This document shows, in pieces, positions 23,118 through 50,303 of a DNA stretch of 64,000 nucleotides. Origin of the DNA: Naegleria gruberi. Its lineage: Eukaryota. A program made the translations under genes and the position numbers. Numbering within the stretch: the stretch's first letter is position 1; the number at the start of each line of letters is the position of its first letter. The notes beneath the pieces are model-generated. The model did no database searches and had not been told where the DNA came from. It saw only the letters and a list, made by a program, of their open reading frames with translations. The stretch is from assembly GCA_000004985.1 (NCBI GenBank), contig GG738879.1. One strand, given 5' to 3'.

Positions 23118-24485
<1,368 letters not shown>

Positions 24486-25573: not shown

Positions 25574-26966
25574 TTACAATTCCCAATCATCATCACTTTC
25601 CTCATCTTCACTGGAATATTCAATATTACCACGACGAAGTTCCATAATACCTGCAATCTTGGCTGCCAAATTGTTTTGATCACTTTCAGCCATATTCTTG
25701 AATTCTGGTAAATCTTCTTGCTTTACATTTCTCAATTTCTTATTTTTAATTTCAGAAAGCATGTCAACACCACCTGAGGCACCACTATCAGAATCAGTTG
25801 TTGGACTTGCAACAGATACTCTAGGCTTAACAGAGTGATCGACAACTGGTGGAGGAGGAACATTGGTTGGTGGAGGAGGTACAAAACCACCAACTCCAAT
25901 GGCACTTGAGCCAGAAGGAGCATTTGAGCTAGCTCCCTTGAAAGGAGGTGGTGGAGGGGTTGATCTAGTTCCTGGGGTTGGTGGAGGTTGTGGTCTTCCA
26001 CTTGGAACATCCAAAGAAGGAGGTGGGGGAGCATCTGATGTGACAGTGACAAGTGTCTTCATTAAAAATTTGGCAGTTTTCTTATCTTTCAATTCAGCTT
26101 CTGAAATGCCTGCCTTCTCAAATATGGTTTTTAGCTCTTGGGGTATTTCTGTAAATCCACTTTTTGGATCAAAACCAATGTGTGAAACGTGTTTAAACTT
26201 GTCAACCTTTGGTCCAGAAATTTTGATTTGTGACCGGTCAGGAATTTGGTCCTTATTCTTTGTTCCGAAAATCTTGGAGAATAAACCACCTCCACTACTG
26301 CTACTACCTCCACTACTGCTATTGCTAGGAGTGTGTTTCTTTTCAGGTTCCTTATGGGAAGAAGTAGTATGTACAGAGCTACTGGCAGCAATTGAAGTAT
26401 TGACAGCTGTTGGCTTGTTAGCAACTGGTGGAGGAGTGGATGGAGGAGGATTAGTCTTCTTCACTGGAGTAGGTGGGGCAGTACTGGAACCAGTACCAGT
26501 TGGTGAAGAAGAAGAAGAATCAGAACTGTCACTTCTCATATTAACAGAAGGTTTAGTTGAAGGCAAACTTGGAGTTGAACCACCATTGATAGAACCAGTT
26601 GCTTTCAAACGAATGAGTTGACAAACTTGCTTGGCAAATTGATCAGCATCAAATCTTTCAGCAAATAACAATCCAACAAAACCTTCATCAGATTCGAATG
26701 CATGAAAATTGGAAGAAAGTGTTTGATAGTCGAAACCTTCATAACATTCTTGTTCCATAGTAACTGATTTACTCTTCAAATCTACCAACCGAATCATTAC
26801 TACTGATTGCTTTTCAACCAATGTAACTGTCAAAATTCCATAAGAATTGGCATATGACCATTGATTACCATTGTTGGCTTTGTAGAGACGAACTGGTGCA
26901 GAATACTTGATTTCGAAAATGTTTGGTAAAGACAAGACACCTGCAGCGAGTTGTACAGCACGTTTA
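25574..26966 (-). CDS. WASP-family actin nucleation-promoting factor (WH1/EVH1, CRIB/GBD, proline-rich, WH2, acidic tail); main exon, with a short 5' exon unresolved
   Basis: The WH1 region SAPVRLYKANNGNQWSYANSYGILTVTLVEKQSVVMIRLVDLKSKS aligns to Dictyostelium WasA SAVVQLYMALPNSNPSSWSLKYTGVVSFVSD...IRLFDLKTGS. CRIB motif ISGPKVDKFKHVSHIGFDPKSGF, poly-Pro tracts, WH2 LSEIKNKKLRNVKQ and the acidic end SEDEESDDDWEL are all present. The open frame runs upstream to an acceptor at ~26966 (cttgaag|t) with no ATG. One candidate 5' exon is only ATGGA at ~27062-27066, which is speculative. Confidence 0.75.
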
Positions 26967-33162: not shown

Positions 33163-34005
33163 TCATTTTGTTGAAAACTCTTTTTTTACTTGGAACAGTA
33201 GAAAAATCATCAACAATCCACAAATAATCAAATGATTTCTGTTCGATTGTTTGCTCTTTTCATAGATTGGTGGAATTGGCAATTGATAAAAATTCGAAAC
33301 TCTATGATATTGAACTCTATTTTGCAACAATTCAATAAACTTGTGTGGATATCCCTGCGAGTAGAATGCATCTCTAGGAATTAATCCATCACTTTTGAAT
33401 CCTTGATTGACAACCTCTTGTATTTCTGCCTTATATTTTTCAATAGAATTAATAATGGCTTGTTTAGAATTTTCATTGAAATAAAAGACCTGAATAGATT
33501 CTACTGATTCGTATACATCAAAGGCCAGGATATCTATTGTAAAACCAACATCATTGTCCATACTGAGATATACCTCTTGAAGTGAAGTGTCAGTTTCACG
33601 AAGATTTTCCAATTTGAACGGTATCTCCTCTCTTGAAAAGACTTTTGCTTTTTGATTGGTGGAATCAGATATTTCAGATAGCAATACGAATCCTCTATTG
33701 TCAATATCAAAGAACTCCCTACTTCTACCTGTAATTGCTAAATTATTATCATTTCCACCTCTCAATCCAATCATGTAAATCAAACCATCACTCTTCATTC
33801 CTGAATGAAGCTTGGTGAATGCAGAAGGTTCCTTCTGGAATAAACTCTTCCAATCACTATCATCAATTTCCTTGTGATCTATTATTCTTGGTATAGTCCC
33901 GGACATGTTTCTTCTCCATCCTCTCGTTTTCAGCAATTGATAACTCTGAAAATGTTGCTTCTTCAAGCAAGATGCAAATTTGAGGGTGTTTTGTAATTTG
34001 TGCAT
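33163..34005 (-). CDS. hypothetical tail-anchored protein (C-terminal TM)
   Basis: ATG at 34005 (aaaaaaATGcac). Basic, hydroxylated N-terminus (MHKLQNTLKFASCLKKQHFQSYQLLKTRGWRR) that could be an organellar presequence. C-terminal hydrophobic anchor HLIICGLLMIFLLFQV. No domain recognised. Confidence 0.4.
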   Translation of the reverse strand: MHKLQNTLKFASCLKKQHFQSYQLLKTRGWRRNMSGTIPRIIDHKEIDDSDWKSLFQKEPSAFTKLHSGMKSDGLIYMIGLRGGNDNNLAITGRSREFFDIDNRGFVLLSEISDSTNQKAKVFSREEIPFKLENLRETDTSLQEVYLSMDNDVGFTIDILAFDVYESVESIQVFYFNENSKQAIINSIEKYKAEIQEVVNQGFKSDGLIPRDAFYSQGYPHKFIELLQNRVQYHRVSNFYQLPIPPIYEKSKQSNRNHLIICGLLMIFLLFQVKKEFSTK

Positions 34006-34124: not shown

Positions 34125-35230
34125 TTAAACTGATTGAGTAATACCAAAAGAATCAAAATTATCTGGACATAATTTCGAATAATGTTCAACACCCTTCTCA
34201 AAATCCTCATCACTAATTAACAATTCATCCAACACTTGTTCCAACCCTGTGAAATTATGTCTCAGTCCAATGAACACAATTTCCTGTCGTCGGTCGCCAA
34301 CTCTTTCAACAAAATGTTGTTTAACATTCTCAAAAACTGTCTTTCCATATAACTGGATGGATTCTTCTTCACCTAAAGTATCAAAGAATTTCAGATATCG
34401 TTCAGTGAAAAGAAAATTGAACAATTTTTCAGTATGGAAAGGCTTTCGTCTTCTGTAAACAAAACTGTTGAATCCATATTCGAAAGTTTCTGGGGTTTGC
34501 ATTCCTCTGAGTTCTTTTAACCACCAGGATTGAATGCTGCCTTTTCAAAATCAAATAGTCCAGTATTCAATACTTTGGAAAGATCTAGCTGAGAATTCAC
34601 TGTTTCATACATTGGCGTCTGTTTTTATTATGGATTTAGTTTAGCCATTAAACTCTTAATCTTTTGAACTTCTTCAATTGAAACTAAATCAATCTTATTA
34701 ATGATAATTACATTTGCAAACTCAAATTGATCGATCAAGAGAGGAGCTATATTTCTTCCATCATATTGCGACAATCTATCAACAAACTTTTCCTTCATTG
34801 TCAAGACAGAATTCAAATCATGCATTAAATTTGCAGCATCAACCATAGTAACACAAGAATCTAATCTTGCAAAATCTGAAAGTGTAAACGAATCATCTTC
34901 ATCCAACTCTCCATCTTCATCTTCCACCTGGAATTCAACATATTCGAAGGTGAATGTCTCTGCAACCTGAAGTGGCTCTCCAATACCTGTTGATTAAATA
35001 TCACAATAGTCAAATACTTCAGTTTGAGATAATTCAAAGAGTTCAACCAGCAAATCTTCTCTCAATGTACAACAGATGCACCTGCAATCAAGAATTATTA
35101 CACATGGAATCAAATTACTTCTACCACTTCCTAAGAAACCACTCAACAGAGTAACTGGTATCTTCTTTCTTTTATATTTATCAAAAATGGATTTGCACAG
35201 GCTAGGAGCTTGTGCTGTTTGTTCTCTCCT
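34125..35230 (-). pseudogene. decayed CobW/COG0523 (Zng1/CBWD-like) metallochaperone GTPase gene
   Basis: Clear homology in one reading direction: IPVTLLSGFLGSG (G1 region), CICCT (CxCC motif), FDYCDI, LLIDQFEFANVIIINKIDLV (NKxD region), ETVNSQLDLSKVLN, and the CobW_C domain GWLKELRGMQTPETFEYGFNSFVYRRRKPF. But the P-loop reads GSGRS (Lys replaced by Arg). About 45 residues between the P-loop and CxCC are missing. In-frame TAA codons occur at three places (DI*STG and NP**KQ). There is a 1-nt frameshift at ...FNPGG*/WLKEL. The only nearby ATG (35228-35230) is out of frame. Confidence 0.5.
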
Positions 35231-35461
35231 TAAGATCCATTAAGAATTGTTGTTGTTGTTGTGCTCTTTTTATTCTTTTTATGAATTTAAAACCCGTACC
35301 GCAGAATTAAAAGATTTACGGTGCAATTCTTTGAATTGAATATTCTATGAAGTATAGCAAGGTATTTGTGAGTTAGTACGATTGAAAAGGAGGAATTAAG
35401 GGTGAATGAGAAAACACCAACAATTATATGAACGCCTTAATATTCTTCAAATCTTCTCCAA

Positions 35462-35532
35462 GAAGGGAGATAGTTCAGTGGTAGAACATGGGATTGTGGT
35501 TCCTAAGATCAGGGTTCGATTCCCTGTCTTCC
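35462..35532 (+). tRNA. tRNA-His (anticodon GTG)
   Basis: AGGGAGATAGTTCAGTGGTAGAACATGGGATTGTGGTTCCTAAGATCAGGGTTCGATTCCCTGTCTTCCTA. Acceptor AGGGAGA/TCTTCCT, anticodon loop tTGTGgt, T-arm CAGGGTTCGATTCCCTG, discriminator A. The G-1 is not encoded, as is usual in eukaryotes. Confidence 0.85.
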
Positions 35533-35589
35533 TACACCTTTTTAAATATTAATAATACAAGTTTATTGTAAGGCAGAGTCCAATTTAAA

Positions 35590-36606
35590 TTACATCATGG
35601 TACAAGCTCCCTTCTTTCTCTTTTTCACCTTATTCATAATTTGGACAGCACAATCCATAAAGCTCTCCTCAACATTTGTTCTAGTTTTTGCAGAAGTTTC
35701 AAAGAAGGTAATATTTCCAAACTTTTTGGCAACTTCACGTCCTTCATCTGCTGAAACAACTCGTTCATTCTTCAAATCTGCCTTATTACCAACCAAGACA
35801 ACTGCTGTCTCACTTGCTAAATTACGATATTCATCAGCATTGTCAAATTCTTTAGCTTGAGCAATTTGTTCAAGGAATGAATAAACTTCATCAAATGAAT
35901 TCCTATTAGTGACACTATAAACAATGACGAAACCTTCTCCTTGTCTAATATATTGATCACGAAGTGTACTATTTCAATGTGACATTTCCACACAAATTAA
36001 AATGATCGTTAGTTTCCAACATGATATATAGTGACACATACCAAAATTCTTCCTGTCCTATTTACGTGCCAACAACAATCACACAAAATATTTGGAAATT
36101 ATTTGACGTTCTCTATGAACAACAATTTCCACACAACAACTTACCAGCAGTATCCAATATATCCAAAATTACTGGTTTTTTTTCAATATGTGTATCTTTT
36201 CGGTATCTTCATCATCAAATATATTAAATTTGTAATATAAATATATATTAACAATTATCATATGTGTTGATTATGACAATAAATATTATATAATAAATAA
36301 TTTAGTGTGATGATGTAAATTTGATGATGTAAAATTTGTACAAATCCACAAATAATAATAATAACAAGAATTGTTATTCATGATGAATTTCTAATAAATT
36401 AATAACATACGAATCTTCCAAGGTCGGATCATATTGTTCTACAAATACATTTTGAATAAGTTGGACGATGAGAGCTGATTTTCCTACACCTCCTAATTTC
36501 CATGTTAAACATTCCAATAATTTAGACGAAACATACCTGAACCGAAAACAACAATTTTCAATTCTTCTGGTTGCTCCTTTGCGTTCTTGTCCTTCTTTGG
36601 TGGCAT
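35590..36606 (-). CDS. Ras-subfamily small GTPase with a CAAX box (CTMM); 5 exons, join(36537..36606,36411..36492,36145..36206,36042..36057,35590..35968), including a 16-nt micro-exon
   Basis: Exon 1 [23 protein letters not shown]|G. Exon 2 [27 protein letters not shown]. Exon 3 [21 protein letters not shown]. Exon 4 (gacaggaagaattttg) supplies (G)QEEF(C). Exon 5 [19 protein letters not shown]...[11 protein letters not shown]...[12 protein letters not shown]...[11 protein letters not shown]. Donors are GTATGT, GTATGT, GTAAGT, GTATGT. Introns are 44, 204, 81 and 67 nt. Phases 1-2-1-2 were checked against ORFs 36374..36823 and 35590..35796. Confidence 0.8.
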
Positions 36607-37641
36607 GTATGAAATATTTTATTGTTATCGTGTAAATGTTTGACAAGTGGCATGGGACAGGGAACTGTTTTCCAATATTCCTTCGGAAGATAAGCTGAAC
36701 TGTTAATATTATTGTAACCGGTGGCCTTTCAACTTGTTTGGTCAATTGTTGATTGGTTTGATCAGATCTGTAAATCGATAGATCTGTTAAATGTGTTGTA
36801 AATATTATAAGTGTACACAACAAGCATTGAGAATTAACTGATTATAAATTGTTGTTGTTGTAATAGACTGATAGTTGCACAGTTCCAATTGTAAGCTGTT
36901 TCACTTTTGGAATTAGGCGGTTAAGTGGTTATTCGAATCTTCAACGTGAGATTTGTGAGAGGAGTGATTCACCCTCAAGATAATTTTGAAAGTGCTTGAA
37001 TTTCTTTAAACGAATCAAAAGGAAATTTGCTAACTATTTCTTCCAGTCCAATAAAATATTAATAATATTCGAAAGGGATAATGAAAACCATTCACACAGC
37101 CATGGTTGCAACAAAGTTTCACCCACTGATGCATTAACAGAATATCTAATCACGAATCATCACCTTAATCTACTATCTCTGCAATGGCTTGTACTAATTC
37201 ATCATTACTTTCGTAATTCTTGGTTTTTCATTCTCACTATGAAAAGGGTTAGAAAGCAAATATATGGGGAAGGTGATTTTCCTCCTAACCTAATTTACAC
37301 TTTAACTCCAGGAATGTTTGGCGTTTACCTCCAATTTCCAATCAAACATCCTCAAAATATGGGATTCTGTATCCGAAACTAATTGAAAGAATTTAAATAA
37401 CCACAGTAAAAAGAAAAAGCAACACCGCATCATTAAATATATTAACTCACATTACGCAAGCTTTGGATTTCTATCACCACCTTGCTTGTGTTTCTTCTAA
37501 TTAATACGAAACTGTTGCTTTCACTCATCATCAATTTTACCTTGTACTTTTAACACAATAGAGATTAATAGACTCACACTAACAACAACCAAATACTAAT
37601 ACCACAAATGTCATCATTACCCATCTCCTATACCGGCTATT

Positions 37642-50215: not shown

Positions 50216-50303
50216 TCCGATGAGACGGAATCGAACCGCCGACCACAGGATGACAGATTTTTCTTGCTACAGTCCCATGCTCTACCAGCTGAGCTATCAT
50301 CGG
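50216..50303 (-). tRNA. tRNA-Tyr (anticodon GTA) containing a 15-nt intron 3' of the anticodon
   Basis: Minus strand: CCGATGATAGCTCAGCTGGTAGAGCATGGGACTGTAG[caagaaaaatctgtc]ATCCTGTGGTCGGCGGTTCGATTCCGTCTCATCGGA. It matches the conserved eukaryotic tRNA-Tyr exon sequences and the canonical intron position after nucleotide 37. Confidence 0.85.

What the first reader, a model, noticed from the sequence alone, without database searches (positions are those of the whole stretch)
34125..35230. Recently decayed CobW/COG0523 (Zng1-like) GTPase pseudogene beside a tRNA-His gene
Every conserved block of a COG0523 metallochaperone is recognisable in order, so this is a recent paralogue, but the gene is dead. 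The P-loop Lys is replaced (GSGRS). About 45 aa between the P-loop and the CxCC motif are deleted. Three in-frame TAA codons interrupt conserved positions (DI*STG, where homologues have E, and NP**KQ). A 1-nt deletion shifts frame at ...FNPGG / WLKELRG. No in-frame ATG exists. TAA is a genuine stop in this genome, since tubulin, Ras and the FNT gene all end on it. Eukaryotic COG0523 proteins are usually single-copy zinc-homeostasis factors, so a fresh pseudogene suggests a recent duplication followed by loss. It is also a useful sequence-accuracy control for this assembly.
Basis: partly seen in the sequence, partly recalled or inferred. Interest (0 to 1): 0.55.

Follow-up and report, generated by a model that had tools for sequence, protein, structure and literature searches.

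The report
Dead ZigA-type COG0523 gene in Naegleria
This is a genuine but ordinary pseudogene: the broken remnant of an old, divergent second copy of a zinc-chaperone-type GTPase gene in the amoeba Naegleria gruberi, whose tail is listed in GenBank as a 125-residue "predicted protein".

Summary
The window is Naegleria gruberi NEG-M: window ORFs match GenBank proteins EFC42449–EFC42541 exactly.

On the minus strand at 34125–35170 lies a clear COG0523 homologue (Pfam cobW 8.5e-20, plus CobW_C).
- three in-frame TAA codons
- a 1-nt deletion in a Gly codon
- no in-frame ATG
- loss of the P-loop Lys

I add or correct four points:
- The N-terminal gap is two deletions, of 11 and 29 aa.
- A third deletion of 36 aa removes the core of CobW_C.
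- The two adjacent TAA codons sit in one 9-nt insertion.
- The P-loop Lys-Thr is deleted, not substituted.

The family is bacterial-type ZigA, not shown to be Zng1.

"Recent duplication" is not supported. The copy is only 56–60% identical to the intact N. gruberi paralogue and to its orthologues. It branches outside the Naegleria+Willaertia clade and has no closer relative in public data.

The frame-corrected ORF carries 3 stops, against 27–36 in the other sense frames. This fits about 3–8% neutral decay. So the paralogue is old (or fast-evolving) and died recently.

One curiosity: all three large deletions cover or abut intron positions of the orthologues (post-hoc P≈0.004).

Interest is low.

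The parts
34125..35170 (-). Recognisable COG0523 (ZigA-type) pseudo-coding region, from RKKIPVT to the terminal TAA
   Evidence: tblastn HSPs with P0003, P0001 and P0002. Pfam cobW and CobW_C. NCBIfam ZigA at 277 bits.
35202..35240 (-). Out-of-frame ATG plus 12 codons ending in TAG. Probably the former start, now separated from the body by a frameshift in the unconserved N-terminus.
   Evidence: Translations. There is no ATG in the KKIPVT frame upstream of the conserved part.
35093..35140 (-). Walker A remnant GFLGSG, joined at 35123|35122 to the conserved island RSNLIPCVII. An 11-aa deletion removes KTTLLRHILKN, so the P-loop Lys-Thr is gone. The second junction, 35093|35092, follows the island and marks the 29-aa deletion.
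   Evidence: Alignments. Coordinates.
35069..35080 (-). Intact CxCC metal-binding motif (CICC)
34994..34996 (-). TAA replacing the invariant Glu of the (I/V)E(S/T)(T/S)G motif. GAA to TAA is a single-base change.
34622..34630 (-). 9-nt insertion TAATAAAAA after LNP, carrying two TAA codons. It is absent from every homologue aligned.
34524..34525 (-). Truncated Gly codon (GG-). This 1-nt deletion shifts the frame between ...AAFNPG and WLKELRG.
34391..34392 (-). Junction of the 36-aa deletion in the CobW_C domain (QQNVLRSKGY...ITIHDGG is missing)
34125..34502 (-). 125-codon ATG-to-TAA ORF formed by the tail of the pseudogene. It is annotated in GenBank as predicted protein EFC42537.1 / XP_002675281.1 / NAEGRDRAFT_69614.
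   Evidence: Exact-sequence look-up.
35464..35535 (+). tRNA-His(GTG). It lies in the 350-bp spacer between the pseudogene start and the 3' end of the Ras-like gene. It is a neighbour, not part of the pseudogene.
   Evidence: ARAGORN. Rfam tRNA at 69.2 bits.

Best explanation
The locus is a non-functional relic (pseudogene) of a second, divergent ZigA-type COG0523 GTPase gene in Naegleria gruberi NEG-M.

**Origin.** The paralogue arose by a duplication at or before the radiation of the Naegleria/Willaertia group. The alternative is a duplicate that evolved about twice as fast as the intact copy.

**History.** It was kept as an open reading frame by purifying selection for most of its history. 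It then lost constraint recently, roughly 3-8% neutral substitutions per site ago.

**Damage since then.**
- one Glu-to-TAA substitution
- a 9-nt insertion carrying two TAA codons
- a 1-nt deletion
- loss or frameshift of the start codon
- three large in-frame deletions, which remove the Walker A Lys-Thr, the segment before the CxCC motif, and the core of CobW_C

It cannot encode a GTPase. The zinc-chaperone function, if needed, is presumably supplied by the intact paralogue P0003 on another scaffold.

**Shown versus inferred.** Shown: the homology, all lesions, the identity levels, the tree position, and the absence of closer relatives in public proteins. Inferred: the timing, the order of the lesions, and the lack of function or expression.
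For: - **Organism.** Exact matches to N. gruberi proteins.
- **Family.** Pfam cobW and CobW_C. NCBIfam ZigA is the best family, at 277 bits. Nearest proteins are Willaertia, N. gruberi and N. lovaniensis at 43-47%, and an ENA contig at 51%.
- **Lesions.**
- **Old divergence.** 56-60% identity, against 67-77% among the intact orthologues, with an NJ position outside them at bootstrap 96/98. No special affinity to the N. gruberi copy. Synonymous sites are saturated against the three orthologue genes whose DNA is held (ENA contig L001, N. lovaniensis, Willaertia).
- **No closer relative.** Among 1.84 billion representatives the best hit to the middle 121 aa is 54% identical at E 3e-24, and none is <=1e-30. 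The tail ORF finds nothing but itself.
- **Recent death.** 3 stops in the corrected frame, against 27 and 36 in the other sense frames. Simulation gives 3 stops at about 5% neutral substitutions, and about 11 at the divergence needed to reach 59% identity.
- **Introns cannot rescue it.** Conserved residues flank each stop and the frameshift directly. Only 48 nt lie between GSG and CICC.
Against: - No reads or RNA-seq were available. The point lesions could in principle be assembly errors or allele-specific. The three large deletions cannot be base-calling errors.
- The basal tree position may be long-branch attraction of a fast-evolving, lineage-specific duplicate. I used only NJ with Kimura distances.
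- The DNA and intron positions of the intact N. gruberi gene could not be retrieved.
- All three large deletions and the 9-nt insertion are multiples of three. This could mean the ORF was still under selection, as a P-loop-less protein, when they occurred. Alone it is not significant.
- The tail ORF has an ATG and is annotated as a gene, so a small expressed product is not excluded.
Confidence: 0.85

Rival explanations
1. One reading: a fresh pseudogene produced by a recent duplication of the single N. gruberi COG0523 gene, followed by rapid loss.
For: An intact paralogue exists in the same genome (P0003). All conserved blocks are still recognisable in order. There are few disablements.
Against: - Identity to P0003 over shared columns is only 59%, lower than P0003 shows to its orthologue in a different genus (69%).
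- There is no excess of residues shared exclusively with P0003.
- Neutral decay from a P0003-like parent to 59% identity predicts about 11 stops. P(<=3 stops) is 0.025 at 0.2 substitutions per site and 0 at 0.3.
Confidence: 0.05
2. Processed or cDNA-derived copy. The locus lacks introns, and its three big deletions sit on ancestral intron positions. On this model it was made from, or converted by, reverse-transcribed mis-spliced transcripts that used cryptic splice sites inside exons. Alternatively the introns were removed by imprecise genomic deletions.
For: - Intron 1 is phase 1, in the third Gly codon of GAGKT. It is present in the ENA contig L001 and in N. lovaniensis L002, and it abuts deletion 1.
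- Intron 2 is at VNDMAE|L in L001, L002 and Willaertia L003. It lies inside deletion 2.
- Intron 4 is at YCG|DWEQ in N. lovaniensis only. It lies inside deletion 3.
- Random placement of the three deletions hits an intron site 3 times out of 3 with P=0.004.
- All three deletions are in frame.
Against: - The test is post hoc.
- Intron 4 is known from one species only.
- The ancestral sequence is unknown, so GT..AG boundaries cannot be checked.
- There is no poly(A) tract and there are no flanking target-site duplications.
- A dead-on-arrival retrocopy of the known paralogue is excluded by the low stop count.
Confidence: 0.2
3. The locus still yields a product. The 125-aa tail ORF (EFC42537) would be a small CobW_C-derived protein. 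Alternatively the remnant was, until recently, a P-loop-less 'pseudo-GTPase'.
For: The ORF runs from ATG to TAA and is an annotated gene model. It matches ZigA profile positions 328-385. The large deletions are in frame.
Against: - The ORF starts in the middle of a conserved block (WLKELRG|MQTPETF), so it is a by-product of the frameshift.
- The CobW_C core (36 aa) is missing.
- No homologue of such a short protein exists in 5.8 billion proteins.
- There is no promoter or expression evidence.
Confidence: 0.07
4. Assembly or sequencing artefact, or a null allele. On this view the real gene, or the other haplotype, is intact.
For: No read data were available. A 1-nt deletion and single-base stops are the kinds of error that assemblies contain.
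Against: - Seven independent lesions lie within 1.1 kb, while neighbouring genes match GenBank proteins exactly and have no internal stops.
- Three deletions of 33, 87 and 108 nt, and 10 unique replacements at near-universal positions, are not base-calling errors.
Confidence: 0.04

Closest known systems
ZigA-type COG0523 zinc metallochaperone GTPases (NCBIfam NF038288), including the intact heterolobosean copies: N. gruberi P0003, N. lovaniensis P0004 and Willaertia magna P0002
   Same: - The order of conserved blocks is the same: GFLGxG, RxNL..VI, CICCTLREDLL, FDY..I(E)STG, QVAETFTF, LLIDQ.EFANVI..NK.DL, LNTGLFDFEKAA.NPGWLKELRG, PET.EYG..SFVYRRRKPF, GDRRQE.VFIG.
- It shares the heterolobosean-specific acidic insert after FTF.
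- ZigA is the best-scoring curated family.
   Different: - It has no open reading frame.
- The Walker A Lys-Thr, 29 aa before the CxCC motif and 36 aa of CobW_C are deleted.
- It scores 277 bits against the 600-bit equivalog cut-off. The intact N. gruberi protein, at 485 bits, is also below that cut-off.
- It is a divergent paralogue, not an orthologue, of the intact copies.
Zng1 / CBWD subfamily of eukaryotic COG0523
   Same: Same superfamily (G3E P-loop GTPases, Pfam cobW plus CobW_C) and presumably related metal-chaperone chemistry. This rests on established knowledge, not on a test here.
   Different: The nearest named relatives returned are ZigA proteins of bacteria and ZigA-like proteins of Balamuthia and Nannochloris. 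None is named Zng1 or CBWD. I did not compare it directly with a Zng1 sequence.
Unitary or duplicated non-processed pseudogenes in eukaryotic genomes
   Same: It shows the usual mix of nonsense, frameshift and deletion lesions in a recognisable frame. It sits in normal gene context, with no poly(A) tract and no target-site duplications.
   Different: The three large deletions all coincide with intron positions of the orthologues. This is not a generic feature of pseudogene decay.

Membership tests
COG0523 / G3E GTPase (Pfam PF02492 cobW + PF07683 CobW_C) | Significant match to the cobW nucleotide-binding domain model | tested here: met
   71.5 bits against a gathering score of 20.7, E 8.5e-20. 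Only profile positions 61-177 of 180 are matched.
COG0523 / G3E GTPase (Pfam PF02492 cobW + PF07683 CobW_C) | Walker A / P-loop GxxGxGK(T/S) | tested here: not met
   GFLGSG is followed directly by RSNL. The KTTLLRHILKN segment is deleted.
COG0523 / G3E GTPase (Pfam PF02492 cobW + PF07683 CobW_C) | CxCC metal-binding motif | tested here: met
   CICC at 35069-35080.
COG0523 / G3E GTPase (Pfam PF02492 cobW + PF07683 CobW_C) | Conserved Glu of the (I/V)E(S/T)(T/S)G (Walker B / switch) motif | tested here: not met
   The codon is TAA at 34994-34996.
COG0523 / G3E GTPase (Pfam PF02492 cobW + PF07683 CobW_C) | NKxD guanine-specificity motif | tested here: met
   INKID at 34688-34702.
COG0523 / G3E GTPase (Pfam PF02492 cobW + PF07683 CobW_C) | CobW_C domain | tested here: inconclusive
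   22.3 bits against a cut-off of 22.0. 36 aa of its core are deleted.
COG0523 / G3E GTPase (Pfam PF02492 cobW + PF07683 CobW_C) | Uninterrupted ORF with a start codon (that is, a gene rather than a remnant) | tested here: not met
   Three TAA codons, one frameshift, no in-frame ATG.
ZigA equivalog (NCBIfam NF038288) | Whole-protein score at or above the curated cut-off (600 bits) | tested here: not met
   277 bits for the repaired remnant and 485 bits for the intact N. gruberi paralogue. ZigA is nevertheless by far the best family for both.
Zng1 / CBWD subfamily | Closest relatives are Zng1/CBWD proteins | not tested
   No Zng1 sequence was compared directly. Named top hits are ZigA or ZigA-like.
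Processed (retrotransposed) pseudogene | Lacks the parental introns; 3' poly(A) tract; flanking target-site duplications; dead on arrival | tested here: not met
   - Introns are absent at orthologous positions.
- There is no poly(A) tract after the TAA.
- There are no convincing flanking direct repeats.
- There are far too few stops for a neutral history since divergence from any known parent.
Recent duplicate pseudogene | Higher similarity to the same-genome paralogue than to orthologues in other species | tested here: not met
   59% identity to P0003, against 56-60% to the orthologues. It branches outside the clade. There are 6 residues shared only with P0003, against 12 with N. lovaniensis and 9 with Willaertia.

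The most novel reading that the evidence does not exclude
The three large in-frame deletions are footprints of imprecise intron removal. Each would have taken out an ancestral intron together with flanking exon sequence. The mechanism could be recombination with cDNA of mis-spliced transcripts, or end-joining deletions. If so, this locus is a natural snapshot of how introns are lost in Heterolobosea. It may also be what killed the paralogue, since the deletion at intron 1 removes the P-loop Lys-Thr.
Probability: 0.2. Interest if true: 0.4.

Novelty: new member of a known kind. Interest (0 to 1): 0.15.

Why it matters
The main value is for annotation.
- NAEGRDRAFT_69614 (EFC42537.1 / D2VL03) should be flagged as the tail of a COG0523 pseudogene, not as a 125-aa protein.
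- Counts of metal-chaperone GTPases in N. gruberi should count only one functional copy among the ZigA-type genes detected here.
- The locus shows that Naegleria once carried two ZigA-type paralogues and recently dispensed with one.

The coincidence of the deletions with intron positions is a small lead on mechanisms of intron loss. None of this would surprise a specialist.

Tried and rejected
1. **Alternative genetic code** (TAA = Glu or Gln, as in some ciliates and Blastocrithidia). I considered this because the first TAA replaces a Glu. I rejected it because the window has long standard-code ORFs. Also, the ORFs that match GenBank proteins exactly end in TAA or TGA without internal stops.

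2. **Introns hiding the stops or the frameshift.** Rejected. Conserved residues abut each lesion, and only 48 nt separate GSG from CICC. A GT...AG pair spanning GSG|...|CICC would be out of frame, and it contains the clearly homologous RSNLIPCVII island.

3. **Synteny.**
   - The downstream neighbour EFC42536 has no homologue at all.
   - The loci of the intact genes in the ENA contig, N. lovaniensis and Willaertia have different neighbours.
   - The DNA of the intact N. gruberi gene was not on record.

4. **Search for the same remnant, or its intact orthologue, in close relatives.**
   - The tail ORF finds only itself.
   - An exhaustive HMMER search with the middle 121 aa finds nothing above about 60% identity.

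5. **Retrocopy hallmarks.** No poly(A) tract and no target-site duplications were found.

6. **Literature.** No paper mentions the locus identifiers. The only paper containing both 'Naegleria' and 'COG0523' concerns Bigelowiella.

7. **Solved structures.** Only YjiA is a relative with a structure, which adds nothing.

Full report
**Source of the window.** Eight of ten long ORFs match GenBank proteins of Naegleria gruberi NEG-M residue for residue. The matches include alpha-tubulin, EFC42449, EFC42451, EFC42456, EFC42458, EFC42536, EFC42540 and EFC42541, all on a 384,281-bp scaffold. The window has 33% G+C and is gene-dense. It uses the standard code. Of the eight exact-match ORFs tabulated there, six end in TAA and two in TGA, and none has an internal stop. 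The FNT ORF and the last Ras exon also end in TAA. I first considered that TAA might encode Glu or Gln, because one TAA replaces a Glu. This evidence excludes that.

**The observation.** On the minus strand, 34125-35170 encodes a COG0523 protein in two frames.
- Pfam gives cobW at E 8.5e-20 and CobW_C at E 1.2e-4.
- tblastn with the intact N. gruberi homologue P0003 gives HSPs at 35167-34523 (48% identity) and 34550-34161 (44%).

The lesions, with coordinates:
- **No usable start.** There is no ATG in the frame of KKIPVT. The ATG at 35238-35240 is in the other frame and stops after 12 codons.
- **Deletion 1.** After GFLGSG (junction 35123|35122), 11 aa (KTTLLRHILKN) are missing. The Walker A Lys-Thr is therefore deleted, not substituted.
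- **Deletion 2.** After the retained island RSNLIPCVII (junction 35093|35092), another 29 aa are missing, up to the CxCC block.
- **Stop 1.** TAA at 34994-34996 replaces the invariant Glu of IESTG.
- **Insertion.** A 9-nt insertion, TAATAAAAA (34622-34630), carries the two adjacent TAA codons.
- **Frameshift.** A Gly codon has lost one base at 34524-34525.
- **Deletion 3.** 36 aa of the CobW_C core are missing at 34392|34391.

The corrected frame has 3 stops in 348 codons, against 27 and 36 in the other sense frames. It is therefore a real former coding frame.

Introns cannot rescue it. Conserved residues flank every lesion directly, and only 48 nt lie between GSG and CICC.

**Family.**
- The nearest proteins are heterolobosean: Willaertia magna at 46%, N. 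gruberi P0003 at 47%, N. lovaniensis at 43%, and an ENA contig protein at 51%. Hundreds of bacterial ZigA proteins follow, at about 38-40%.
- NCBIfam ranks ZigA (NF038288) far above CobW, MRF and YjiA-like models, both for the remnant (277 bits) and for P0003 (485 bits). Neither reaches the 600-bit equivalog cut-off.
- The only solved relative is YjiA.

The remnant is therefore ZigA-type. The label 'Zng1-like' is not supported by anything I could test.

**Age of the copy.**
- Over 296 shared alignment columns, the remnant is 56-60% identical to the four intact heterolobosean proteins. These are 67-77% identical to one another.
- In an NJ tree with 300 bootstraps, the intact Willaertia+Naegleria proteins form a clade that excludes the remnant (96%). 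The remnant joins them at the next node (98%). Its branch length is 0.35, against 0.13-0.21 for the others.
- It shares exclusive residues with N. lovaniensis (12), Willaertia (9), N. gruberi (6) and the ENA protein (5). It has no preference for the same-genome copy.
- At amino acids that are conserved, codon identity equals the shuffled expectation, so synonymous sites are saturated.
- A neutral-mutation simulation gives 3 stops at about 5% substitutions per site. At 20-30% substitutions, which are needed to fall to about 59% identity, it gives 10-12 stops. P(<=3 stops) is 0.025 at 0.2 substitutions per site and 0 at 0.3.

Most of the divergence therefore accumulated while the frame was under purifying selection, and the death is recent. 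No closer relative exists in public data:
- The full-length search found nothing above 51% identity.
- The tail ORF finds only itself.
- An exhaustive search of 1.84 billion representatives with the middle 121 aa gives a best E-value of 3e-24, and nothing at 1e-30 or better.

The 'recent duplication' reading is thus not supported. Long-branch attraction could still hide a lineage-specific, fast-evolving duplicate.

**Annotation.** The 125-codon ATG-to-TAA ORF at 34125-34502 is the tail of the pseudogene. It is in GenBank as predicted protein EFC42537.1 / XP_002675281.1 / NAEGRDRAFT_69614. It begins inside the conserved WLKELRG-MQTPETFEYG block, so it is a by-product of the frameshift. No paper mentions it.

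**A curiosity: the deletions and intron positions.** I mapped the introns of the intact orthologues.
- **Intron 1** is phase 1, in the third Gly codon of GAGKT. It is present in the ENA contig L001 and in N. lovaniensis L002. It abuts deletion 1.
- **Intron 2** is phase 1, at VNDMAE|L. It is present in L001, L002 and Willaertia L003. It lies inside deletion 2.
- **Intron 4** is at YCG|DWEQ and is known only from N. lovaniensis. It lies inside deletion 3.

Random placement of three deletions of these lengths hits an intron site all three times with P=0.004. For the two conserved introns alone, P=0.007 that two deletions hit them. This is a post-hoc test. It suggests imprecise removal of introns, either through cDNA of mis-spliced transcripts or through genomic deletion. 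The ancestral sequence is unknown, so splice-like boundaries cannot be checked. There is no poly(A) tract and there are no target-site duplications. A dead-on-arrival retrocopy of the known paralogue is excluded by the stop count.

**Context.**
- The remnant lies between an orphan gene, EFC42536 (33163-34005), which has no homologues, and tRNA-His(GTG) at 35464-35535.
- Beyond the tRNA lies an intron-rich Ras-like gene.
- The intact genes in the ENA contig, N. lovaniensis and Willaertia have unrelated neighbours.
- The DNA of the intact N. gruberi gene was not retrievable.

**Verdict.** This is an ordinary pseudogene with a mis-annotated tail. Interest is low, apart from the coincidence with intron positions.

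Noticed in passing
window 35093-35123 and 34391-34392; L001 1739-1838 and 1920-1964; L002 10223-10324, 10400-10471 and 11505-11668; L003 10205-10294: All three large deletions of the pseudogene cover or abut intron positions of the intact orthologues. All these introns are phase 1. A post-hoc permutation test gives P about 0.004.
   Followed up: partly
window 34125-34502 (-): The pseudogene tail is annotated in GenBank/UniProt as a 125-aa predicted protein (EFC42537.1, D2VL03, NAEGRDRAFT_69614).
   Followed up: yes
window 33163-34005 (-): EFC42536, 119 bp downstream of the pseudogene, is a 280-aa orphan. It has no homologue among 5.8 billion proteins and no Pfam domain. Its promoter must lie in or next to the pseudogene tail.
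   Followed up: partly
window 50216-50303 (-): Rfam finds a fourth tRNA here (54.8 bits, 88 nt) that ARAGORN does not report. It is probably an intron-containing tRNA gene.
   Followed up: partly
window 35590-36610 (-): The Ras-like gene has several short GTATGT/GTAAGT...AG introns. The first splits its P-loop (GSG|GVGKS).
   Followed up: no
window 23124-24485 (+) and 25574-26935 (-): Two 453-codon ORFs lie in divergent orientation around a 206-aa gene (EFC42531). The first is alpha-tubulin, and the identical protein is encoded on three N. gruberi contigs. I assumed the second is also a tubulin but did not check.
   Followed up: no
L001 1590-3180: The ENA metagenome gene call P0001 (381 aa, starting MDNGCICC) is a truncated model. 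Two upstream exons encode the N-terminus and the P-loop, and they are separated by GTAAGT/GTATGT introns. The contig therefore carries a complete Naegleria-like ZigA-type gene.
   Followed up: partly
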